Shown here one piece after another: positions 1,739-9,969 of a stretch of DNA of 10,289 bases. The notes under the pieces are model-generated. The model made no database searches, was not told the DNA's origin, and saw only the letters and a program-made list of their open reading frames with translations. Numbering within the stretch: position 1 is the stretch's first letter; every line of letters starts with the position of its first letter. Source of the DNA: a virus (lineage: Duplodnaviria > Heunggongvirae > Uroviricota > Caudoviricetes); the IMG/VR virus record IMGVR_UViG_2740892235_000015, positions 1-10,289 of that record. One strand, given 5' to 3'. A program made the translations under genes and the position numbers.

Positions 1739-1945
1739 ATGGAAGCAATCAAAAAAGTCATCTTTCGCCAGGAAGTAAAAAAACTTATCCACATTAAGGC
1801 AGACAGCACGCTGCAAAGCATGATCAACGCCGGAGAATTCCCGCAGGGTTTTCGTGTCGGTTTGCGCCGTCGCGGATGGTATGAGGAAGACGTAATCGCA
1901 TGGATGAAAGAACGAGAACAAGAAGCGCGCGGAACGACCGCTTAA
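1739..1945 (+). CDS. alpA: AlpA-family helix-turn-helix regulator (prophage excision/transcription activator-like)
   Basis: 68 aa. Sequence pattern typical of the AlpA family (KKLIHIKADSTLQSMINAGEFPQGFRVGLRRRGWYEEDVIAWMKE). Position immediately downstream of int. GAGG SD. Confidence 0.8.
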   Translation: MEAIKKVIFRQEVKKLIHIKADSTLQSMINAGEFPQGFRVGLRRRGWYEEDVIAWMKEREQEARGTTA

Positions 1946-2066
1946 CATATATAGGGCAAATGATGAACATAAAAAAAGCGGCCCCGAAATGGAGCCACCT
2001 TTCTGAACAATTAACCCGCTGCGCCGTATGTGTCAACAATCATAAGCCTGGGCATGATAACCGCGA

Positions 2067-2270
2067 TCAGGCTGGTGGGCAATTATCTTTCTTGTTGGGG
2101 CCGTATTGTGCTGCCATTTTCATCCGTTCAGAACGTGAATATTTTTTTAGAAACTCATCAAGGACAAAAGCGCATGGTGCGAATCTTTCTGATTCATGCT
2201 CGAGCGCCATATTTTCGTGCTCTCTGTTCGTTTTTTGCGATGGTGTATCGGTTGATTCTTTATTGGTCAT
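2067..2270 (-). CDS. Hypothetical small protein (67 aa), second gene of RHH operon 1
   Basis: Minus-strand ORF starting MTNKESTD. Its ATG and first three codons (ATGACCAA) lie inside the conserved R1 element directly downstream of the RHH gene. SD is weak (AGG). No recognisable domain. Confidence 0.45.
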   Translation of the reverse strand: MTNKESTDTPSQKTNREHENMALEHESERFAPCAFVLDEFLKKYSRSERMKMAAQYGPNKKDNCPPA

Positions 2271-2323
2271 TGTGTGTACCTGTAAAGCAATGCGCCGTAG
2301 TACCTCACGCCACGGCGCTGATG
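2263..2323 (-). repeat. R1 copy a: conserved intercistronic element with stem-loop
   Basis: 45-nt core at 2279-2323 is identical to 3460-3504. Contains a hairpin, stem GCGCCGT / ACGGCGC with a 13-nt loop. TTGGTCAT at 2263-2270 (the start-codon region of the downstream minus gene) is also shared, with an 8-nt variable spacer between. Confidence 0.85.
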
Positions 2324-2327
2324 TTTT

Positions 2328-2501
2328 TTATCCTTTGGGTTCAATACCGCGTTGCTGTAATTCTTTTCGGAGTACTCGCTTGATCCAGGTGGCTAAAGAA
2401 GTGTCACCGTCTGCTTTCGCTGCCTCTTCAAGTTGTGCTCTGAATTCTTCTGGTAGCCGCATTTGGTATGGAGGCGATCGCTTTTCCAATGGTGTTGACA
2501 T
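2328..2501 (-). CDS. Ribbon-helix-helix (Arc/MetJ/CopG-type) DNA-binding protein, 57 aa
   Basis: Hand translation of the minus strand gives MSTPLEKRSPPYQMRLPEEFRAQLEEAAKADGDTSLATWIKRVLRKELQQRGIEPKG. The MRLPEEF...L...A......S...WI...L pattern is a classic RHH strand-helix-helix. AAGGG SD 9-10 nt upstream. Not in the supplied ORF track, presumably because it is below the length cutoff. Confidence 0.7.
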   Translation of the reverse strand: MSTPLEKRSPPYQMRLPEEFRAQLEEAAKADGDTSLATWIKRVLRKELQQRGIEPKG

Positions 2502-2541
2502 GGTAATTACCCTTAATTACTATAGTTACATGGTAATTACC
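2498..2541. promoter_or_regulatory. Candidate operator: two copies of the perfect palindrome GGTAATTACC
   Basis: ACATGGTAATTACC at 2498-2511 and 2528-2541, 30 bp centre to centre, with a TAATTAC half-site between them (2514-2520). Lies in the divergent region abutting the RHH start codon and upstream of the rightward leader. Confidence 0.5.
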
Positions 2542-2569
2542 ATTGTACTTACCGTTATACAAAAAACAA

Positions 2570-2611
2570 CGCCCCGCAGTGGTGGCTCACATACGGGGCG
2601 TCTAACCAAAC
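2570..2611 (+). repeat. R2 copy a: leader stem-loop plus conserved TCTAACCAA tail
   Basis: CGCCCCG-ca-GTG-gtggct-CAC-ata-CGGGGCG (2570-2600) followed by TCTAACCAAAC (2601-2611), then GAGG SD and ATG at 2632. Same architecture as 3822-3860. Confidence 0.6.
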
Positions 2612-2631
2612 CATTAATTGAGGTAACGATT

Positions 2632-2718
2632 ATGGCTATAAAAGAGCATAGCTTACTCTTTATACACNNNNNNNNNNTTCGCTGGCGGTTATGCAACTTA
2701 GTGCTGATATGGCGCTGA
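2632..2718 (+). pseudogene. Probable degenerate or interrupted Ash/Icd-like paralog
   Basis: Starts MAIKEHSLLFIH, paralleling the MVAVNHIPHLVH start of the 3881 gene, with the same upstream leader element. Interrupted after 12 codons by the N run. Reads IWR then stop after the gap where the paralog has VWRFLAL. Frame across the gap is unknowable. Confidence 0.3.
2668..2677. other. Run of 10 N (unknown sequence, possible scaffold gap or masked bases)
   Basis: Directly visible in the sequence. Confidence 1.
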
Positions 2719-2767
2719 ATGAGGCCAAAGCTATCCTGATTGCTGATTGTGAAAATGGGGGGGGGTT

Positions 2768-3001
2768 ATGCGTGATGATCGTTTTTATTCCCTGAAACAA
2801 GAATTTTCCGGCGTATCTGATGATGCGGCTGATGCGCTTTCGTCAATGCCAGAACTTATTAGAGCGGCTTTTTTCTTACTTTCCACGAAAGAATATAAAT
2901 CAACGGGACTTGATGTACTGAATATCGCCGCCGATTATGCGGAATATGTGGCAGAGGCGCGTTACAGAAGAAAATTTCCTGAGGATGTAAGCCATGCGTG
3001 A
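2768..3001 (+). CDS. Hypothetical small protein (77 aa)
   Basis: ORF MRDDRFYSLKQEF... with helical, protein-like composition. A G9 homopolymer immediately upstream serves as the SD region. The stop overlaps the start of the next ORF (ATGCGTGA), suggesting translational coupling. The opposite-strand ORF 2859..3116 looks like antisense noise. Confidence 0.5.
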   Translation: MRDDRFYSLKQEFSGVSDDAADALSSMPELIRAAFFLLSTKEYKSTGLDVLNIAADYAEYVAEARYRRKFPEDVSHA

Positions 3002-3210
3002 TATTTACCACGAAACAACAGAACGCGTATTTCTTGCACTTTCTCACAGTGAAAACATGCTGGAAATATTGCGCATATGGCTTGAAACACTTGGCGACAA
3101 TGAACGCGACAAACAAAAATCAAGAATTGTCACGGCATTAATAACGCTTCTTGAGCCTGTAATAAATGAGTTGCAGGAAATAGAGACATTGCACGACAGA
3201 TATAACGAAC
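2994..3210 (+). CDS. Hypothetical small acidic protein (at least 72 aa; 3' end lost in N run)
   Basis: ORF MRDIYHETTERVFLALSHSENMLEILRIWLETLGDNERDKQK..., with GAGGA SD at 2981-2985. Net acidic and helical. Runs into the N run at 3211, so the true stop is undefined. The 292-aa extension in the ORF track is antisense to real minus-strand genes and is not credible. Confidence 0.45.
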
Positions 3211-3220
3211 NNNNNNNNNN
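3211..3220. other. Run of 10 N (unknown sequence, possible scaffold gap or masked bases)
   Basis: Directly visible in the sequence. Lies between convergent genes. Confidence 1.
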
Positions 3221-3223
3221 TAC

Positions 3224-3451
3224 TCATCCTGGCGGGCGATTCTTACGGGACTTTAGCCGCCGTGGGCAGCTTGCTAAAAATGCCTCCAACGCGAATAGTC
3301 CAGGTTTCATTTCTATCGGTATTAGTTGGATATTCAGAGGATTAGCCAGTTCGGCTTCAAGGCGAGCACAGGTTTCTAACTGCCTTTGCCGAATGATTTC
3401 ATCTTCTTGCGTATGCGTGTCTTGTATTGGTGATAGTGTGTTGTTGGTCAT
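3224..3451 (-). CDS. Hypothetical small protein (75 aa), second gene of RHH operon 2
   Basis: Minus-strand ORF starting MTNNTLSP. Start region ATGACCAA is shared with the 2067..2270 gene and embedded in the R1 element. The stop codon is reached before the N run, so the ORF is complete as shown. No recognisable domain. Confidence 0.45.
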   Translation of the reverse strand: MTNNTLSPIQDTHTQEDEIIRQRQLETCARLEAELANPLNIQLIPIEMKPGLFALEAFLASCPRRLKSRKNRPPG

Positions 3452-3504
3452 GGTACTGCCCTGTAAAGCAATGCGCCGTAGTACCTCACGCCACGGCGCT
3501 GATG
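3444..3504 (-). repeat. R1 copy b: conserved intercistronic element with stem-loop
   Basis: 45-nt core at 3460-3504 is identical to 2279-2323. TTGGTCAT at 3444-3451 is also shared. Sits between the stop of RHH gene 2 and the start of the downstream small gene. Confidence 0.85.
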
Positions 3505-3508
3505 GTGA

Positions 3509-3688
3509 TTATTCTGATTCTTTGGCCTTGCGACGCTGGCGGTATTCAACTTCCCGCTTTAATGCAGCTGTAACAAACTGCCCTGTACTTTCGCCGGGCA
3601 TTTTTACCGCCTCAACATTGTTCATAACTTCATGTGGAACCCTTGCCGCAACTGTTTGTGATTTTGCGTTTACTGCTTTTGTCGCCAT
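3509..3688 (-). CDS. Probable ribbon-helix-helix DNA-binding protein, 59 aa
   Basis: From ATG at 3688: MATKAVNAKSQTVAARVPHEVMNNVEAVKMPGESTGQFVTAALKREVEYRQRRKAKESE. RHH-like strand (TVAARVPHEV) followed by two short helices. GAGGGG SD 8 nt upstream. The ORF-track start at 3697 is a GTG. Confidence 0.6.
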   Translation of the reverse strand: MATKAVNAKSQTVAARVPHEVMNNVEAVKMPGESTGQFVTAALKREVEYRQRRKAKESE

Positions 3689-3717
3689 GTTGAGCACCCC
3701 TCATAAAAAACAAATGC

Positions 3718-3814
3718 AGTATGCAGGAAAAAAAATAAGTGTTCAACACTTGACGTGTTTAACACCTCGATTTAAATTGGTGTTCAACACCTTATTTAGG
3801 CAAGGTGTTGAAAC
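3718..3814. promoter_or_regulatory. Divergent promoter/operator region of module 2
   Basis: Rightward sigma70-like promoter: -35 TTGACG (3750-3755), 17-nt spacer, -10 TAAATT (3773-3778). Leftward: -35 TTGAAC (complement of 3741-3746), 17-nt spacer, -10 CATACT (complement of 3718-3723). Inverted-repeat motif GTGTT-N-AACAC at 3739-3749, 3755-3765 and 3780-3790, plus a half-site variant at 3805-3814, overlapping both promoters. Confidence 0.5.
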
Positions 3815-3820
3815 GACGAA

Positions 3821-3860
3821 ACCCCGCACTGTAGGAGCAGTAACGGGGCTTCTAACCAAC
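3821..3860 (+). repeat. R2 copy b: leader stem-loop plus conserved TCTAACCAAC tail
   Basis: CCCCG-c-ACTG-taggag-CAGT-aa-CGGGG (3822-3848) followed by TCTAACCAAC (3851-3860), then AGGAG SD and ATG at 3881. Both stems differ in sequence from copy a but keep the same architecture. Confidence 0.6.
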
Positions 3861-3880
3861 AACGTAAACTAGGAGCCGTT

Positions 3881-4444
3881 ATGGTTGCTGTAAATCATAT
3901 ACCACACCTTGTACACACACAAACTGCCTTTGTGTGGCGTTTTCTGGCCCTGAATATCGGAGAAAAAAACCAGTTGATCGCCAGTGTCGAAAATAGCTAT
4001 GATTCCCGCGCACCTCATAAAACGGGTGTCGGGATTAGCCTCCTGAAAACAACTGAAGCGCACAGCACGCGCCCCGCGTGTTTTTTTGTGCCGCATAGTC
4101 ACACCTTATCAATGGTGGGCTGTACGGGGGCGGAGCAATCCGCGCCGGTTTCTTCAGTGTCCGGTAAGGCTAACCCTGTACAGTCCGCCACCAGCGAAAT
4201 TAGCCTTTTGCGTGGCGGTTATCTTAACCACACTGAGGAGGCTGCCAACATGGCTACTACCCCTGCCCTCGTACATTCTCAAACAGCCTTTATCTGGCGC
4301 TTTATTGCCTTTGGCGCGTCAGACCATCAAATCATCCACGTAACCGCCTGGACGGAACGCGAAGCGCGTAACCGTTGCCCGTACGGTTGTGTTGCTGTGT
4401 TCGCCGCCCGTATTCGTCAGGGGGCGCACCATGCACAATTATGA
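3881..4444 (+). CDS. Tandem-repeat protein, possibly Ash/Icd-like (P4-associated family)
   Basis: 187 aa with an internal duplication: LVHTQTAFVWRFLAL near the N-terminus and LVHSQTAFIWRFIAF around residue 130. AGGAG SD at 3871-3875. An in-frame internal ATG at 4250 is preceded by GAGGAGG (4235-4241). Family assignment is from memory of Icd-like sequences (FxWRF and NRC motifs) and is unverified. Confidence 0.55.
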   Translation: MVAVNHIPHLVHTQTAFVWRFLALNIGEKNQLIASVENSYDSRAPHKTGVGISLLKTTEAHSTRPACFFVPHSHTLSMVGCTGAEQSAPVSSVSGKANPVQSATSEISLLRGGYLNHTEEAANMATTPALVHSQTAFIWRFIAFGASDHQIIHVTAWTEREARNRCPYGCVAVFAARIRQGAHHAQL

Positions 4445-4936: not shown

Positions 4937-6330
4937 AAAGCGCACCGAACTTAAAAAAACAGCCTTACGACAAGATGACCGAAGTCATCATTTTTGCGGG
5001 TAGTGATGCGTGGGCACATGCGAAACAGTGGCAGGAACAGGACGGGCGACTGGCTGGCGATAATGTGCCTCCCATTGTGCTGGCTGATGATCAACTGGAT
5101 GAACTGGCAGACCTGAGAATCATCGACGAGGGGCGCTATTGTGTCCGGCTGTACAAGGCAGGCCACATCAGGCCATCAAATATTAATGCCATTGCGCACA
5201 AGCTGGCGGCGGCGGGCGTAACTGATGCGAATTATTACCCCGAAGGGATACACAGCCAGAAGCGGGAGAACTGGCGCGAATATCTGGAACGGGAGCGGGG
5301 GAAAAAGCCAGGGGAAGAACACCACCAGCGAAAAACCACGCTACCGATGAGCGTTGGATCTGCCGGATACGACACGCAATTAGATTACGTGGTAAAGGGG
5401 ATTATTCCGGCATCGTCGCTATGCAGCATATACGGGGCAAGCGGTTCCTATAAATCATTCCTTGCGGGTTCGTGGGCGTGTCACGTTTCCACGGGCCGCC
5501 AGTGGGGAGGCCGCAGGGTGGCGCATGGCGCTGTTCTCTATGTGGTTGGTGAAGGCGGTATCGGCGTTCCGCGTCGTGTAAAAGCCTGGGAGGTTGTGCA
5601 CGGTGAGCAGGTGAAAAATCTGTATCTGGTAAACCGTCCAGTTTTTCCGGCTGTCCCGCTTGATGTTGATGAACTGGTTATCGCTGCCCGTCAGGTGGAG
5701 CGGGAAACGGGTAAACCTGTACGCATGATTATTCTTGATACTCTGGCGCGTTGCTTTGGTGGCAATGATGAAAATGATTCCCGTGATATGGGGGCGTTTA
5801 TCCGTGGGTGTGACGAGCTTAAACGGCGCACAGGGGCCACGGTGCTGGTGGTTCACCATTCCGGCAAGGATGAGACGAAAGGCGCGCGCGGTTCCAGTGC
5901 ATTTCGTGCATCACTGGATGCTGAATACCGGATACGCAGGGAGGACGCAGGAAGCGAAGCGCTGGTTATCTCATGCACCAAAATGAAGGACGCGGAGGAA
6001 CTCAAAGAAGCCGCATATGACTTACGCGTGGTGGAGCTTTTTACCGACGCTGACGGGGAGTTAATCACGTCGCTGGTGGTGGTGGATAAGCCGCGCCCTC
6101 CCGTTGAACTGGAGCGCATCGAGGAGGCAGGCAACAAGACGGAAAACCATACCGCGCTATGGGGATGCATACGTTCACGCACACAGCACGGCGACAAGTG
6201 CACGATCCCGCTGTTACGTGACGATATGAAAAAGCTGGGGTATGACACAAAACACCTTAAACGATGGTTAGCCAAACTGGAAAAAGACGACGTGATCTAC
6301 ATTGACGGTGATGATGTAGGACCACTGTAA
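4933..6330 (+). CDS. Replication ATPase/helicase, RecA-fold (RepA/AAA_25-like) with uncharacterised N-terminal domain
   Basis: 465 aa. Walker A GASGSYKS (aa 168-175), Walker B-like RMIILDT, and a VVHHSGKDETKG motif typical of RepA-like RecA-fold helicase-ATPases. The iteron array starts immediately after the stop codon. Confidence 0.88.
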   Translation: MKSAPNLKKQPYDKMTEVIIFAGSDAWAHAKQWQEQDGRLAGDNVPPIVLADDQLDELADLRIIDEGRYCVRLYKAGHIRPSNINAIAHKLAAAGVTDANYYPEGIHSQKRENWREYLERERGKKPGEEHHQRKTTLPMSVGSAGYDTQLDYVVKGIIPASSLCSIYGASGSYKSFLAGSWACHVSTGRQWGGRRVAHGAVLYVVGEGGIGVPRRVKAWEVVHGEQVKNLYLVNRPVFPAVPLDVDELVIAARQVERETGKPVRMIILDTLARCFGGNDENDSRDMGAFIRGCDELKRRTGATVLVVHHSGKDETKGARGSSAFRASLDAEYRIRREDAGSEALVISCTKMKDAEELKEAAYDLRVVELFTDADGELITSLVVVDKPRPPVELERIEEAGNKTENHTALWGCIRSRTQHGDKCTIPLLRDDMKKLGYDTKHLKRWLAKLEKDDVIYIDGDDVGPL

Positions 6331-6532
6331 AAAGTGGGCATTAAAAGTGGGAAAGGTGGGCAATTTAACGGAATTTTAACAAAATTACCCACTTTCCCAC
6401 GTGTATATATCCCAAAAAGTGGGCACTAAAAAAATACCTATGAAACAAGATGATATAAATCCCAAATTTCCCACGTTGGACGAAGTGGGAAAACGTAAAA
6501 AGTGGGCGAAAAAAGTGGGTAGAGGTGGGCAA
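6331..6532. repeat. Iteron array, candidate origin of replication
   Basis: About ten copies of (A)AAGTGGG(C/A)A or GGTGGGCAA in both orientations: direct at 6331-6340, 6343-6354, 6354-6363, 6416-6425, 6483-6493, 6497-6508, 6511-6520, 6522-6532; inverted at 6388-6400 and 6467-6474. An AT-rich stretch lies between them (6365-6412). Confidence 0.6.
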
Positions 6533-7203: not shown

Positions 7204-7219
7204 GCAACGAGTGACAGAA

Positions 7220-7241
7220 GCCGGAGCAATCCGGCTTTTTT
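7220..7241 (+). terminator. Rho-independent terminator
   Basis: Stem GCCGGA / TCCGGC with loop GCAA, followed by T6. Lies 17 nt after the SSB stop. Confidence 0.7.
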
Positions 7242-7248
7242 GTAGGTA

Positions 7249-7430
7249 CTCCTGGTGGGGGTGGCCTGTCCACGGGGCGGGCGGCGCGGAAAAAAGCGCA
7301 TTTTTTGATTTTTATGGCACCATCACCACCACTATAAGTTATTGATATATTGAAGAATAAAAATTTTTAGTGTCGAATCAGGTTGTTTTTTGTTCATCAC
7401 TGGAGCGTTCCCGAAAGCATTTACAAAAAA
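7249..7430 (+). repeat. R3 copy a: duplicated intergenic control module
   Basis: GC-rich block at 7249-7312 nearly identical to 9786-9850. Shared TATAAGT (7333-7339), AGGTTGTTTTTTGTTC (7380-7395) and TTTACAAAAAA (7420-7430), with the same spacings as in copy b. Confidence 0.8.
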
Positions 7431-7669: not shown

Positions 7670-7864
7670 ATGCCAGAGAACAACACCAGAAAGCCGGATA
7701 AAAGTGCCACGGTACACATAGACGCCGGAACTATGGAGAAGATCGAACGCTATCAGCAGTTCATCAAAGATAATCACCCGGGTATGCCAGTGCCCACGAA
7801 AGGACAAATCACACGCAGCGCGGTTGAATACTGGTACAGGGCAACGTTAGGAGCCTGGCTATGA
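7670..7864 (+). CDS. Hypothetical small protein (64 aa)
   Basis: ATG at 7670 with GGAGG SD at 7658-7662. Stop overlaps the start of the protease/capsid gene (ATGA). No recognisable domain. Confidence 0.5.
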   Translation: MPENNTRKPDKSATVHIDAGTMEKIERYQQFIKDNHPGMPVPTKGQITRSAVEYWYRATLGAWL

Positions 7865-9750
7865 AAACATGGTTTTCCATTAAGGCTATGGCAGATGTTG
7901 TACATGTGCGCATTTATGACGAGATCGGCGGGTACGGTGTAAAAGCATCGGCACTTACTGACGAGATCAACGCGTGTGGTAATGCGTCTGAAATCCATCT
8001 TCGCATCCATTCACCTGGTGGCGACATCTTTGAAGGGCTGGCTATCTATAACGCTCTGAAAAATCATCCGGCAAAAAAAATCGTACACATTGAAGGCATG
8101 GCGGCTTCTATGGCGTCGTTTATTGCCATGTGTGGAGATCACATCGTTATGCCTGAAAACGCGATGATGATGATACATGCCCCCCGTGGTGTTACTGCCG
8201 GAGTGTCGGGCGACGTTCGCCGCTTTGCTGATCTGATGGACAAGCTGGGCGACACGATGGCAGAAACCTATGCCGGAAGAACGGGCAGGAGCAAACAGGA
8301 GATCACCTCAATGATGGAGGCGGAAACCTGGATGGATGGCAATGAGTGTAAGGCTAACGGCTTCGCAGATGAGGTTATACCCGCGATTACAGCAATGGCC
8401 CGAATTGAATCAAAACGAATCGGAGATTTTTCAAATATGCCGGAAAAAATTAAAAGCATGATCAGCCAGAAAACTGGCAGTGGCGAACAGGAACGACTTA
8501 ACGGAATCCGTGAATTGTTTGGCACCTTCAACGGAAGATATAACGACCTGGCTATAAGTTGTCTTGCGGATTCAGAATGTAGCGTTGAGAATGCACGCGA
8601 ACGCCTTTTACTCGCTATGGGTAAAGAATCAACGCCAACAAACAAAACCACCCCCGCAAATCTTTACTACGCGTACACGGATAACGGCAATATAACTGGC
8701 GATGCCATGCGTCAGGGGCTTAATGCGCGTCTTGGTCACGAACGGGCCGAACGCGGTAATCCTTACGCCATGATGAGTCTTTTCGATATGGCACAGGCAT
8801 CATTAACCCATCGTGGTATAAGCACGGGCAGCTACAGCACACGCTCGCAGATAGTAAACGCGGCATTCACCCACAGCAGCAGCGATTTTACAGATATCCT
8901 TGCTGGTGGCGCTGAAAAATCAGTGCTTGCAGGCTGGGAGCACAGCGGCGAAACATTCCGCCAGTGGACGAAAAAAGGTTCCCTTTCAAACTTCCGGGAA
9001 GCCCGCCGCGTTGGTATGAATGGCTTCTCAACGTTAAACAAAGTGCCGGAAGGGGCAGAATATAAATACATCACCACCAGCGATCGCGGTGAACCCATCG
9101 CGCTGGCTACTTACGGGAATATTTTCAGCATTACCCGCCAGGCGATAATCAATGATGACCTTGATCAGTTATCAACGGTGCCAATGGCTATGGGCCGTGC
9201 AGCATCAAGAACGGTGGGAAATCTGGTTAATCTGGTGCTTACAGGCAACGTAAAACTTTCTGACGGAATAACGCTGTTTGACAAAAAACACAGCAACCTG
9301 ATTGAAGCAGGACTGACAACACCGGGACTTAGTGCAGCACGTCACCTGATGCGCACACAGAAGGACAAAAATGGCGAAGTGCTGAATATTGCGCCTAAAT
9401 TCCTTTTAGTTCCGGCAGCACTGGAAGATCGCGCGTTGCAGATGATTAACTCAACCGCACCTTTCGGGGCTGATAAAAACAGCGGGATCTTTAACCCGTA
9501 CCACAAGCTACTTGATATCATCGTCGATCCCCGCCTTGATGATATCAGCGAAAAACAATGGTACATGCTTTCCGCACAGGGAACGGACACAATCGAGGTG
9601 GCTTATCTTGATGGCAATGACGAGCCTTACCTTGAACAGCAGGAAGGTTTTATCGTTGACGGCGTGGCCTGGAAAGTCCGTATTGATGCAGGTGTGGCAG
9701 CTCTGGATTATCGCGGTATGGTCAAATCAGGCGGTACCGATTCACTATGA
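7861..9750 (+). CDS. Prohead protease (ClpP-like, S14) fused to HK97-like major capsid protein
   Basis: 629 aa. The N-terminal ~190 aa match the ClpP pattern (IHSPGGDIFEGLAIYNALK ... GMAASMASFIAMCGD ... MMIHAPRGV, compare ClpP INSPGG, AASMGAF, MIHQP). The C-terminal ~300 aa resemble the HK97-fold major capsid family. A linker or scaffold-like region lies between. AGGAG SD. Confidence 0.88.
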   Translation: MKTWFSIKAMADVVHVRIYDEIGGYGVKASALTDEINACGNASEIHLRIHSPGGDIFEGLAIYNALKNHPAKKIVHIEGMAASMASFIAMCGDHIVMPENAMMMIHAPRGVTAGVSGDVRRFADLMDKLGDTMAETYAGRTGRSKQEITSMMEAETWMDGNECKANGFADEVIPAITAMARIESKRIGDFSNMPEKIKSMISQKTGSGEQERLNGIRELFGTFNGRYNDLAISCLADSECSVENARERLLLAMGKESTPTNKTTPANLYYAYTDNGNITGDAMRQGLNARLGHERAERGNPYAMMSLFDMAQASLTHRGISTGSYSTRSQIVNAAFTHSSSDFTDILAGGAEKSVLAGWEHSGETFRQWTKKGSLSNFREARRVGMNGFSTLNKVPEGAEYKYITTSDRGEPIALATYGNIFSITRQAIINDDLDQLSTVPMAMGRAASRTVGNLVNLVLTGNVKLSDGITLFDKKHSNLIEAGLTTPGLSAARHLMRTQKDKNGEVLNIAPKFLLVPAALEDRALQMINSTAPFGADKNSGIFNPYHKLLDIIVDPRLDDISEKQWYMLSAQGTDTIEVAYLDGNDEPYLEQQEGFIVDGVAWKVRIDAGVAALDYRGMVKSGGTDSL

Positions 9751-9756
9751 CAACAA

Positions 9757-9778
9757 GGCGGCACCAGCCGCCTTTTTT
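9757..9778 (+). terminator. Rho-independent terminator
   Basis: Stem GGCGGC / GCCGCC with loop ACCA, followed by T6. Lies 7 nt after the capsid gene stop. Confidence 0.7.
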
Positions 9779-9785
9779 GCGGGTC

Positions 9786-9969
9786 CTCCTGGTGGGGTGG
9801 GCCTGAACACGGGGCGGGCGGCGCGGAAAAAAGCGCATTTTTTTGATTTTATCGTCATCATCATCATGTGTATAAGTGATTGTTTTTAATTATTTTGATG
9901 TGAAAAAGATGATGAAGAAGGTTGTTTTTTGTTCGACATCTTTTAGCGTGACAGATTCTTTACAAAAAA
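9786..9969 (+). repeat. R3 copy b: duplicated intergenic control module
   Basis: GC-rich block at 9786-9850 nearly identical to 7249-7312. Shared TATAAGT (9871-9877), AGGTTGTTTTTTGTTC (9919-9934) and TTTACAAAAAA (9959-9969). Confidence 0.8.

What the first reader, a model, noticed from the sequence alone, without database searches (positions are those of the whole stretch)
2263..3504. Identical 45-nt stem-loop element between gene 1 and gene 2 of two otherwise diverged RHH operons
The 45-mer CCTGTAAAGCAATGCGCCGTAGTACCTCACGCCACGGCGCTGATG (plus-strand notation) occurs at 2279-2323 and 3460-3504 without a mismatch. The flanking RHH genes and downstream small genes have diverged beyond easy recognition. 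Each copy sits exactly between the RHH stop and the ATGACCAA start of the downstream gene and carries a 7-bp stem with a 13-nt loop. Perfect conservation inside diverged coding context implies strong selection or recent gene conversion. Candidate roles: intercistronic attenuator or processing site setting the RHH-to-partner ratio, a target for an antisense RNA (analogous to the seqA/seqC targets of P4 CI RNA), or a protein-binding site.
Basis: seen in the sequence. Interest (0 to 1): 0.7.

Follow-up and report, generated by a model that had tools for sequence, protein, structure and literature searches.

The report
Conserved hairpin between two satellite regulator genes
The repeated 45-base sequence is real: it is the conserved spacer, containing an RNA hairpin, between a small repressor-type gene and a small partner gene in a family of phage-satellite islands found in about a quarter of E. 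coli genomes, and it occurs twice here because that regulatory module is duplicated in tandem.

Summary
The 45-mer is exact at 2279-2323 and 3460-3504, with 0 expected by chance.

What it is:
- It forms most of a fixed 57-nt intercistronic region on the minus strand: stop, 9 nt, 27-nt hairpin, 13-nt tail, 8 nt, AUG.
- The operon is [Arc/YlcI-type RHH regulator -> hairpin -> small P..F.L..F protein] in an Escherichia/Shigella PICI/P4-like island.
- It is in 1498 of 5426 complete E. coli genomes, with up to 7 copies per genome. I found it in no phage record and in no other genus.
- It is the best-conserved part of the operon.
- Six RHH clusters and six of the seven small-protein clusters reassort around it, so it is also a mosaic joint.
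- Closed genomes carry the same tandem A-B arrangement, so it is not an assembly artefact.

Evidence on the hairpin:
- Variants favour it in the mRNA sense: 90% versus 76% of cells paired, 23 versus 3 strand-specific pair-preserving changes, and one C-G to U-A swap.
- Formal covariation is weak.

What was tested and failed:
- an intrinsic terminator on either strand;
- a C4/IsrK target;
- any Rfam family;
- a sar-like antisense promoter.

Most likely mechanism (inferred, not shown): a cis-acting intercistronic mRNA stem-loop, acting as a stability or processing barrier that sets the regulator-to-partner ratio.

It is a modest, undescribed element of a known kind.

The parts
2279..2323 (-). Element copy 1 (the 45-mer). 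In the mRNA sense it reads CAUCA lead (2323-2319), 27-nt hairpin (2318-2292), then tail AUUGCUUUACAGG (2291-2279).
   Evidence: Exact match; fold.
3460..3504 (-). Element copy 2 (identical 45-mer): lead 3504-3500, hairpin 3499-3473, tail 3472-3460.
   Evidence: Exact match; fold.
2328..2501 (-). Module A regulator, a 57-aa Arc-like RHH protein.
   Evidence: ORF; PHROG 228 Arc-like repressor at 4.9e-7; weak Pfam Arc and YlcI_YnfO_N hits.
2067..2270 (-). Module A small partner protein, 67 aa (MTNKEST...ERFAPCAFVLDEFLKKY).
   Evidence: ORF; PHROG 21027; family alignments.
3509..3688 (-). Module B regulator, a YlcI/YnfO-family (RHH-like) protein. It is 59 aa from the ATG at 3688; the ORF list starts it at the GTG at 3697.
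   Evidence: ORF; NCBIfam YlcI_YnfO_N at 2.4e-16; 59-aa homologues annotated in L001.
3224..3451 (-). Module B small partner protein, 75 aa (MTNNTL...GLFALEAFLASCPRRLK).
   Evidence: ORF; identical or near-identical proteins in related loci; alignment.
2495..2544 (.). Module A control region. The ATGGTAATTACC palindromes (2500-2511, 2532-2543) overlap a rightward TTGACA-17-TACTAT promoter.
3739..3812 (.). Module B control region. The GTGTTYAACAC palindromes (3739, 3755, 3780, and a half-site at 3804) overlap a rightward TTGACG-17-TAAATT promoter.
1968..1995 (-). Terminator-like hairpin plus U7 about 70 nt after small gene A; the likely end of the leftward operon.
   Evidence: Sequence; d-score -4.6 and T-score 3.13; Rfam weak-hit alignment showing the hairpin.
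2561..2609 (+). Second module-boundary repeat, copy 1: a GC hairpin plus UCUAACCAA in the leader of the rightward operon.
   Evidence: D4.
3811..3859 (+). Second module-boundary repeat, copy 2.
   Evidence: D4.

Best explanation
WHAT IT IS (shown). The 45-mer is the core of a fixed-length 57-nt intercistronic region: stop, 9 nt, 9-bp/9-nt-loop hairpin, 13-nt tail ending in a weak AGG Shine-Dalgarno, 8 nt, AUG. It sits in a leftward two-gene operon, [RHH regulator -> small P..F.L..F protein], of PICI/P4-like phage-satellite islands of Escherichia and Shigella. The RHH gene with its operators, and the small gene, are exchangeable cassettes, and the spacer between them is the conserved joint. The window holds two copies because the regulatory module is duplicated in tandem (module A 2067-2609, module B 3224-3859). 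The same arrangement is seen in closed genomes. Exact identity of the two copies here is best read as recombination or gene conversion between the tandem copies, or as a chance draw from a small set of variants.

HOW IT WORKS (inferred). The hairpin forms in the operon mRNA (window minus strand) and acts in cis as an intercistronic stem-loop that uncouples the two cistrons. It would block 3'-to-5' decay and/or mark an endonucleolytic processing site, so that the upstream regulator segment outlasts or outnumbers the downstream small-protein segment. This is the way REP or other intercistronic hairpins work in malEFG- or puf-type operons. The hairpin begins 9 nt after the stop and ends 21 nt before the AUG. 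By my estimate it therefore lies just outside the footprints of a terminating and an initiating ribosome.

The stated confidence (0.4) is for the whole statement including the mechanism. The 'what it is' part alone I hold at about 0.85.
For: - Context and spacing: the stop-to-element distance is constant in 107 of 110 instances (no upstream ORF called in the other 3) and the element-to-ATG distance in 109 of 110. The RHH/YlcI gene upstream and the small gene downstream appear in every annotated E. coli locus fetched.
- Distribution: 1498 of 5426 complete E. coli genomes, 2624 places.
- Conservation peak: column identity is 0.8-0.96 over the element against 0.4-0.5 in the flanks.
- Mosaic joint: 6 RHH clusters and 6 of the 7 small-protein clusters occur in 19 combinations (the seventh cluster, D0, has no tabulated combination).
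- Tandem copies in closed genomes and in 16 loci.
- RNA-sense hairpin: 90.3% of stem cells pair in the mRNA sense against 75.7% in the antisense. Among non-consensus cells, 23 pair only in the sense strand against 3 only in the antisense.
- One compensatory C-G to U-A change with U.G intermediates, and G.U converted to A-U or G-C in 7 cells.
- The hairpin is more stable in the sense strand in 27 of 32 variants, mean -12.9 versus -9.1 kcal/mol.
- RNAalifold returns only this hairpin for the intergenic region.
- No U-tract, so it is not a terminator. No room for a separate promoter, so the small gene must be read from the same mRNA.
Against: - Covariation is weak. There is only one double change, and the shuffle controls do not separate the observed structure from chance on the covariation measures. 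RNAalifold's covariation term is only -0.33 kcal/mol.
- All variants come from one genus, so conservation could reflect recent spread.
- The commonest variant (GCGCCAUAG...) keeps only the 5-bp lower stem, and another common variant has a U.C mismatch in the middle of the stem.
- The strand asymmetry could partly be a transcription-associated C-to-T bias.
- No RNA-end or expression data were available, so the decay or processing role is purely by analogy.
- In-silico RBS accessibility is unchanged by deleting the hairpin (0.582 versus 0.582), so there is no sign of a translational role.
Confidence: 0.4

Rival explanations
1. Recombination linker only. The spacer has no RNA function. It is conserved because these islands spread recently within Escherichia. 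A shared 45-75-nt stretch between exchangeable cassettes is continually homogenised by homologous recombination or gene conversion, in the way boundary sequences are kept between modules of mosaic lambdoid phages.
For: - Free reassortment of upstream and downstream cassettes around the element.
- Recombinant copies such as L002 3001, with RHH A upstream and small B downstream.
- The family is restricted to Escherichia and Shigella.
- Within-locus copies are more alike (41-45 of 45) than random pairs (38.3 of 45).
- Covariation statistics are not significant.
Against: - The spacer is more conserved than both coding flanks.
- Spacing never varies.
- Substitutions are strongly biased towards those that keep pairing in the mRNA-sense strand only (23 versus 3 cells).
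- One compensatory pair.
- A neutral linker would not need a hairpin.
Confidence: 0.25
2. RNA operator. The hairpin loop (purine-rich, usually UGAGG) and the tail are bound by a protein that controls translation of the small gene 21 nt downstream. Candidates are the basic small protein itself (many variants carry ARKRRRRK or PRRLKxxKNRPPG stretches), the RHH protein, or a host factor such as CsrA.
For: - The loop sequence is conserved beyond what a stem needs.
- The hairpin sits at a fixed 21 nt from the AUG.
- Arg-rich stretches occur in many small-protein variants.
- GGA occurs in the loop and near the SD in some variants.
Against: - The same hairpin precedes small proteins with and without the Arg-rich N-terminus, including both window copies.
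- GGA is absent from the loop in the window copies and in many variants.
- The loop is replaced by UGCGGUGAA in one lineage that keeps the stem.
- No binding data exist.
Confidence: 0.12
3. Leaky intrinsic terminator (attenuator) after the RHH gene that lets only a fraction of transcripts reach the small gene.
For: A GC-rich hairpin of -14.9 kcal/mol followed in most variants by a moderately U-rich AUUGCUUU.
Against: - The d'Aubenton-Carafa discriminant is -37 for the window copies and -55 to -72 for variants whose tails are ACAGGGUU, ACCGCUUU or CAACCAUA. The window's obvious terminators score -5 to +36.
- The terminator scan did not flag it.
- The stem is kept in lineages that lost the U-rich tail.
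Confidence: 0.1
4. P22 sar-like antisense system. A small RNA is made from the + strand, starting inside the small gene. It covers the small gene's RBS and terminates at the + strand version of the hairpin, repressing the gene downstream of the Arc-like repressor gene.
For: - The gene order (Arc-like RHH first, regulated gene second, hairpin in the intercistronic region) mirrors P22 arc-sar-ant (own knowledge; region described in PMC2629481).
- In module A the + strand hairpin is followed 5 nt later by T6.
Against: - No promoter-like site on the + strand at 2200-2280 or 3380-3460.
- The + strand terminator score is -35.5 and -46.5.
- The T-run is absent downstream of YlcI-type genes.
- Substitutions disfavour pairing on the + strand.
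- No DNA similarity to any phage record.
Confidence: 0.05
5. Trans target of the island's own C4 or IsrK antisense RNA, in the manner of P4 seqA/seqC or the P1 a/b sites.
For: C4 and isrK are present 500-700 nt away. A 6-8-bp match exists between the tail AUUGCUUU and C4 GGAGCAAU.
Against: - That match is at chance level: 69-81% of shuffles do as well. The same C4 has a 15-bp helix with the icd RBS (0 of 500 shuffles).
- The matching C4 bases lie in a GCAA tetraloop hairpin.
- L009, which carries the element, has only about 196 nt between the RHH and icd genes, which leaves little room for C4.
Confidence: 0.03

Closest known systems
Intercistronic stem-loops that set differential expression within operons (REP in malE-malF, hairpins in the Rhodobacter puf operon, papB-papA processing). 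Compared from own knowledge.
   Same: A stable GC-rich hairpin without a U-tract lies between two cistrons of one mRNA. It sits just outside both ribosome footprints, and the upstream gene is the one expected to be needed in excess.
   Different: There is no sequence relation to REP/BIME. The element is confined to one operon of one island family, at 1-7 copies per genome, rather than dispersed. Its effect on RNA stability is untested.
Bacteriophage P22 immI region (arc - sar - ant)
   Same: An Arc-type RHH autoregulator is the first gene. A regulatory RNA structure lies in the arc-ant intercistronic region. The module sits in a mobile element's immunity or derepression circuitry (PMC2629481; details from own knowledge).
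   Different: No antisense promoter or + strand terminator was detected. Pairing is favoured on the mRNA strand. The downstream gene is a 57-79-aa protein, not a roughly 300-aa antirepressor. No sequence similarity was found.
Conserved boundary (linker) sequences between exchangeable modules of mosaic temperate phages. Compared from own knowledge of the modular theory of phage evolution.
   Same: A short conserved stretch is flanked by non-homologous or highly diverged cassettes that occur in many combinations.
   Different: Here the linker also shows a strand-specific RNA-pairing signature and invariant spacing to the stop and start codons.
P1/P7 c4-icd-ant and P4 CI RNA immunity (Rfam C4 RF01695, isrK RF01394)
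   Same: This is the same island and the same regulatory neighbourhood. A genuine C4/isrK pair is present at 4010-4195 and has the expected complementarity to the icd RBS.
   Different: The element is on the divergent leftward operon and is not complementary to C4 or IsrK above chance. It matches no Rfam model.

Membership tests
Any Rfam 15 RNA family | Covariance-model match at E <= 1 over the element | tested here: not met
   A cmscan of the whole window at E <= 1 gave only C4, isrK and four weak hits elsewhere. Nothing fell at 2260-2335 or 3441-3515.
Rho-independent (intrinsic) terminator | GC-rich hairpin | tested here: met
   A 9-bp stem at -14.9 kcal/mol in the mRNA sense, and a 7-bp stem at -12.7 kcal/mol on the + strand.
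Rho-independent (intrinsic) terminator | U-tract immediately 3' of the stem (positive d'Aubenton-Carafa discriminant) | tested here: not met
   T-score is 1.45-1.98 and d is -35 to -47 on either strand. Variants score -55 to -72, whereas the window's real terminators score -5 to +36. The scan did not flag it.
P22 sar-type antisense control of the gene after arc | Arc-type RHH gene directly upstream of the regulated gene | tested here: met
   PHROG 228 Arc-like repressor at 4.9e-7 for RHH A, and YlcI_YnfO_N for RHH B.
P22 sar-type antisense control of the gene after arc | Antisense promoter inside the 5' end of the downstream gene, and an antisense terminator in the spacer | tested here: not met
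   There is no + strand promoter-like site in the relevant stretches. The + strand terminator discriminant is negative. These are consensus scans only, so a weak promoter cannot be excluded.
Target site of C4 / P4 CI-type antisense RNA | Extended complementarity to the antisense RNA loops | tested here: not met
   The longest helix is 8 bp including G.U pairs, reached by 69-81% of shuffles. The positive control (icd RBS) gave 15 bp, reached by 0 of 500 shuffles.
Lambda-type nut site (boxA + boxB bound by an Arg-rich N protein) | BoxB hairpin with a GNRA-like pentaloop, a boxA consensus (CGCUCUUA), and an Arg-rich-motif protein partner | tested here: not met
   The loop is 9 nt (UGAGG pentaloop only in some variants). 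The tail UUGCUUUAC resembles boxA only loosely and is replaced by ACAGGGUUAC or AUUGCUAUGC in common variants. The Arg-rich N-terminus is absent from both window proteins. The comparison with the consensus is from memory.
REP/BIME or other dispersed genomic repeat | Many copies scattered in unrelated intergenic regions | tested here: not met
   There is a median of 1 and a maximum of 7 places per genome. In every fetched locus with annotation the element lies in the same island context, between alpA and icd.
CsrA-regulated leader | GGA motif in a hairpin loop plus GGA overlapping the SD | tested here: not met
   The window copies have GAGGUA in the loop and CAGGU or CAGGG at the SD. GGA is present only in a subset of variants.
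Structured cis-regulatory RNA supported by covariation | Compensatory base changes above background | tested here: inconclusive
   There is 1 double change, and 30 one-sided pair-preserving cells against 28 unpaired. The shuffle control is not significant on the covariation measures. Strand asymmetry favours the mRNA sense.
PICI / cf-PICI-type phage satellite (context of the element) | int, alpA, replication (primase/RepA helicase) genes and, for cf-PICI, its own capsid genes | tested here: met
   An integrase-type ORF lies at 1-1242 (its homologues are annotated as integrase in L001 and L003). There is a weak AlpA Pfam hit at 1739-1945. Annotated homologues include RepA-family helicase, DUF4222, SSB and PerC. 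The 7861-9750 ORF reads as a protease-capsid fusion (not tested here). The organisation is as described for EcCIEDL933 (bioRxiv 10.1101/2022.09.08.507074).

The most novel reading that the evidence does not exclude
The hairpin is an RNA operator recognised by the basic small protein encoded just downstream (or by the RHH protein). This would give the satellite a protein-RNA feedback loop, or a nut-like antitermination signal, embedded in its immunity operon. The conserved hairpin would then be the fixed 'socket' that lets diverged regulator cassettes be swapped without rewiring the post-transcriptional control.
Probability: 0.08. Interest if true: 0.6.

Novelty: new member of a known kind. Interest (0 to 1): 0.33.

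Why it matters
PICI and P4-like satellites are in a large share of E. coli genomes and shape phage-host dynamics, yet their repression circuitry in Gram-negative hosts is poorly understood.

This work defines a widespread leftward operon: an RHH regulator with module-specific operators, a conserved hairpin spacer, and a small protein. It shows that the spacer is both the most conserved part of the operon and the joint at which immunity-type cassettes are exchanged.

If the hairpin does set the regulator-to-partner ratio, it is a simple and testable control point for satellite induction. It would also be a candidate for a new Rfam cis-regulatory family. If it does not, it is a clean example of a recombination linker.

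Either way the finding is of specialist rather than general interest.

Tried and rejected
1. My first degenerate pattern scan of viral contigs was off by one base and found nothing. This was a wasted scan, not a negative result.
2. Alternative-frame peptide (HQRRGVRYYGALLYR, ending in an ATGA overlap with the small gene's start). Rejected because the commonest variant changes 5 of 15 residues non-conservatively. The open frame and the ATGA are expected from GC-rich sequence and a favoured +4 A. I found no slippery site for a frameshift from the RHH frame (by eye, not a formal scan).
3. Intrinsic terminator on either strand: rejected.
4. C4 or IsrK target: rejected. The earlier whole-length duplexfold energies are uninformative, because they ignore intramolecular structure.
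5. Pairing between the element's loop and the second module-boundary hairpin (2561-2609 / 3811-3859): by eye, only 5 bp, and in one module only. Rejected.
6. RBS-insulator idea, in which the hairpin keeps the downstream RBS unpaired whatever cassette lies upstream. Mean unpaired probability was 0.582 for wild type, 0.582 with the hairpin deleted and 0.569 with the 5' arm shuffled, over 105 contexts. There is no useful effect.
7. CsrA site: GGA is not conserved.
8. EHEC island sRNAs (Esr41, Pas sRNAs): these are at unrelated loci.
9. Search for the element or the operon outside Escherichia, to obtain deeper covariation. Nothing was found in GTDB representative genomes except E. coli and Shigella plus three chance hits. 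Nothing was found in 50,697 phage records. All 120 listed homologues of the small protein (of 126 hits) that carry a source name are from Escherichia or Shigella.
10. A PDB sequence search with the YlcI-family alignment gave no informative hit.
11. Structure prediction of the small protein was considered but not run, because a roughly 60-aa protein with one conserved helix would not give an interpretable fold match.
Full report
OBSERVATION

The 45-mer is present without mismatch at 2279-2323 and 3460-3504 and nowhere else in the window. None of 200 dinucleotide-preserving shuffles gave a match. The similarity extends to 75 nt at 85% identity (2260-2334 / 3441-3515).

Both copies lie on minus-strand transcription units.
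- Copy 1 starts 4 nt after the stop of a 57-aa ORF (2328-2501) and ends 8 nt before the ATG of a 67-aa ORF (2067-2270).
- Copy 2 has the same spacing between a 59/62-aa ORF (3509-3688/3697) and a 75-aa ORF (3224-3451).

Folded as RNA in the sense of those genes, each copy gives a 9-bp stem with a 9-nt loop (GCGCCGUGG / CGUGAGGUA / CUACGGCGC, -14.9 kcal/mol). This is followed by the tail AUUGCUUUACAGG. On the + strand only 7 bp form.

CONTEXT

The window is a PICI/P4-like satellite island.
- I read 1-1242 as an integrase-type ORF; its homologues are annotated as integrase in related loci.
- An AlpA-like gene lies at 1739-1945 (weak Pfam hit).
- Two leftward RHH modules follow.
- isrK (4010-4086) and C4 (4108-4195) precede an Icd-like gene at 4250-4444.
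- Downstream are DUF4222, a RepA-family helicase and SSB, by homology to annotated relatives. I read the ORF at 7861-9750 as a protease-capsid fusion; this was not tested here.
- This layout matches the int-alpA-rep plus capsid organisation described for cf-PICIs.

RHH A hits the Arc-like repressor PHROG (4.9e-7) and, weakly, Pfam Arc. RHH B hits NCBIfam YlcI_YnfO_N (2.4e-16). A also hits that model weakly, and both hit PHROG 949, so they are distant relatives.

The two small proteins are also homologous. An alignment of nine family members has invariant P, F, L and F in a P..F.L..F motif. So 'diverged beyond recognition' overstates the case.

Each module has its own palindromic operators overlapping a rightward sigma70-like promoter: ATGGTAATTACC in module A and GTGTTYAACAC in module B. 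These are therefore immunity-type cassettes of different specificity.

DISTRIBUTION

An 86-nt query around copy 1 matches 2624 places in 1498 of 5426 complete E. coli genomes. Genomes with a match have a median of 1 and a maximum of 7 places, almost all chromosomal.

In every annotated locus I fetched, the element lies between a YlcI/YnfO-type or hypothetical RHH gene and a small hypothetical gene, next to alpA on one side and icd on the other.

- A degenerate pattern found only E. coli and Shigella among 185,579 species-representative genomes, plus three chance hits.
- Neither the element nor RHH B matched any of 50,697 phage records.
- All 120 listed homologues of the small protein (of 126 hits) that carry a source name are from Escherichia or Shigella.

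The element is therefore neither a generic repeat nor phage-borne. It belongs to one operon of one island family in one genus.

NOT AN ASSEMBLY ARTEFACT

The closed genome CP027457 (L001) has the same A-then-B tandem arrangement with two copies. CP027462 (L002) has three copies. Sixteen loci in the sample carry tandem copies 573-741 nt apart.

The window's spacing of 1181 nt is explained by the 533-nt segment between the two N10 runs (2678-3210). That segment is 88-98% identical to DNA that lies downstream of icd in related islands. It is probably a small contig that was placed wrongly in the scaffold. This affects the region between the modules, not the copies themselves.

ANATOMY ACROSS THE FAMILY

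In 110 pattern-defined instances the distance from the upstream stop is constant in 107 (no upstream ORF was called in the other 3). The distance to the downstream ATG is 8 nt in 109. Anchored column identity peaks at 0.8-0.96 over the element and falls to 0.4-0.5 in both coding flanks.

Clustering the flanking proteins gives 6 upstream (RHH) clusters and 7 downstream clusters. Six of the downstream clusters occur with RHH clusters in 19 combinations; for example, the main YlcI cluster is found with six different small-protein clusters. L002 carries an RHH A - element - small B recombinant.

The spacer is therefore a mosaic joint. A second conserved stretch (2561-2609 / 3811-3859) bounds the other side of the RHH-plus-operator cassette.

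IS THE HAIRPIN SELECTED AS RNA?

I collected 32 distinct variants. Some came from sets anchored on the RHH C-terminus or on the small protein, so they are not biased by the element's own sequence.

- In the mRNA sense, 90.3% of stem cells form standard pairs.
- One pair shows a full C-G to U-A swap with U.G intermediates.
- The consensus G.U pair is converted to A-U or G-C in seven variants.
- In total, 30 cells carry one-sided changes that keep pairing and 28 are unpaired. Nine of the unpaired cells are a single common U.C variant.

The tool's shuffle control is not significant on the covariation measures. RNAalifold gives a covariation term of only -0.33 kcal/mol, although it predicts this hairpin and nothing else in the spacer.

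The strand comparison is more telling.
- The same columns pair in only 75.7% of cells on the + strand.
- Of the non-consensus cells, 23 pair only in the mRNA sense against 3 only in the antisense.
- The hairpin is more stable in the mRNA sense in 27 of 32 variants, mean -12.9 versus -9.1 kcal/mol.

I take this as moderate evidence for an RNA hairpin in the operon mRNA. There are three caveats: all sequences come from one genus, cells are not independent events, and a transcription-linked C-to-T bias could contribute.

MECHANISMS TESTED

Terminator or attenuator. The d'Aubenton-Carafa discriminant is about -37 for the window copies in the mRNA sense and -35 to -47 on the + strand. Lineages that keep the stem but have tails ACAGGGUU, ACCGCUUU or CAACCAUA score -55 to -72. 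Five recognisable terminators in the same window score -5 to +36. The consensus scan does not flag the element. It is not a canonical terminator.

Antisense target. C4 has a 15-bp helix with the icd RBS (0 of 500 shuffles) but only an 8-bp, chance-level match to the element. IsrK behaves likewise.

Sar-like antisense RNA. There is no + strand promoter-like site and no + strand terminator, and pairing is disfavoured on that strand.

RBS insulation. Predicted accessibility of the SD-AUG window is the same with and without the hairpin.

Known RNA family. None matches.

Overlapping peptide or frameshift. The peptide is not conserved across variants.

MOST LIKELY MECHANISM

The small gene has no room for its own promoter, so it must be read from the RHH mRNA. 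The hairpin begins 9 nt after the stop and ends 21 nt before the AUG. By my estimate it therefore lies just outside both ribosome footprints.

The simplest reading is a cis-acting intercistronic stem-loop that protects the upstream regulator segment from 3' exonucleases and/or marks a processing site in the A/U-rich tail. The autoregulating RHH protein would then be made in excess over its small partner. This is inference by analogy with REP- and puf-type intercistronic hairpins. No step of it is shown here.

The identity of the two copies in this window is best explained by recombination or gene conversion between tandem modules, or by chance. Within-locus pairs elsewhere match at 41-44 of 45 positions, and 6.5% of random pairs are identical.

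VERDICT

It is an undescribed but unsurprising kind of feature: a conserved intercistronic hairpin that doubles as a module joint in Escherichia phage satellites. It is worth a small experimental test or an Rfam submission, but not a major surprise.

Noticed in passing
window 2668-2677, 2678-3210, 3211-3220: The 533-nt segment bounded by the two N10 runs is 88-98% identical to DNA that lies downstream of icd in related islands (L003 3414-3943, L015 3718-4249). Closed genome L001 has only 53 nt at this position. The segment is probably a small contig mis-placed during scaffolding.
   Followed up: partly
window 2561-2609 and 3811-3859 (+): A second repeat lies at the other edge of each RHH-plus-operator cassette. 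It is a GC-rich hairpin followed by UCUAACCAA, in the leader of the rightward (icd) operon, at 71% identity. It could be another conserved leader RNA element or module joint.
   Followed up: no
window 7218-7315 and 9755-9852 (+): A 98-nt repeat at 84% identity lies after the ssb gene and after the capsid gene. It consists of a terminator hairpin, then CTCCTGGTGGGG...CACGGGGCGGGCGGCGCGGAAAAAAGCGCATTTTTTGATTTT. It may be a repeated terminator-plus-promoter or regulator-binding unit of the late genes.
   Followed up: no
window 4010-4195 and 4230-4244 (+): There are strong Rfam hits to isrK (61.8 bits) and C4 antisense RNA (75.4 bits). The second C4 loop can form a 15-bp helix with the icd Shine-Dalgarno region (0 of 500 shuffles). 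This is the P1-type immunity arrangement inside a PICI-like island.
   Followed up: partly
window 3881-~4010 (+): A short ORF start (MVAVNHIPHLVHTQTAFVWRF...) resembles the N-terminus of the Icd-like protein at 4250 (MATTPALVHSQTAFIWRF...). A similar start (MAIKEHSLLFIH) at 2633 runs into the first N run. They look like remnants of duplicated icd/ash 5' ends left by the module duplication.
   Followed up: no
window 1900-2718 and 2994-3872 (+): Long open frames of 272 and 292 codons run antisense to the whole RHH operons, across the hairpin. In related genomes PGAP annotates such frames as 'Icd-like protein' pseudogenes (L003 2131-2724, L004 2209-2688). I treated them as probably spurious but did not test this.
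   Followed up: no
window 6329-6519 (+): Iterated AAAAAGTGGGCA motifs, with inverted copies, lie just after the RepA-family helicase gene. They are likely replication-origin iterons.
   Followed up: no
related loci (e.g. L004, L006, L131; proteins P0021, P0026, P0064): Many variants of the small downstream protein carry an arginine-rich N-terminal stretch (PARKRRRRK), while others, including both window copies, do not. All share the P..F.L..F motif and a basic C-terminal region. The family has no Pfam model and appears restricted to Escherichia and Shigella.
   Followed up: partly
L184, L187, L188 (positions 958-1161): In one lineage the gene upstream of the element is not a standard RHH gene. 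It is a 67-aa ORF that reads through into the 5' arm of the hairpin, with its stop TAG inside the stem. Translation there would melt the hairpin.
   Followed up: no
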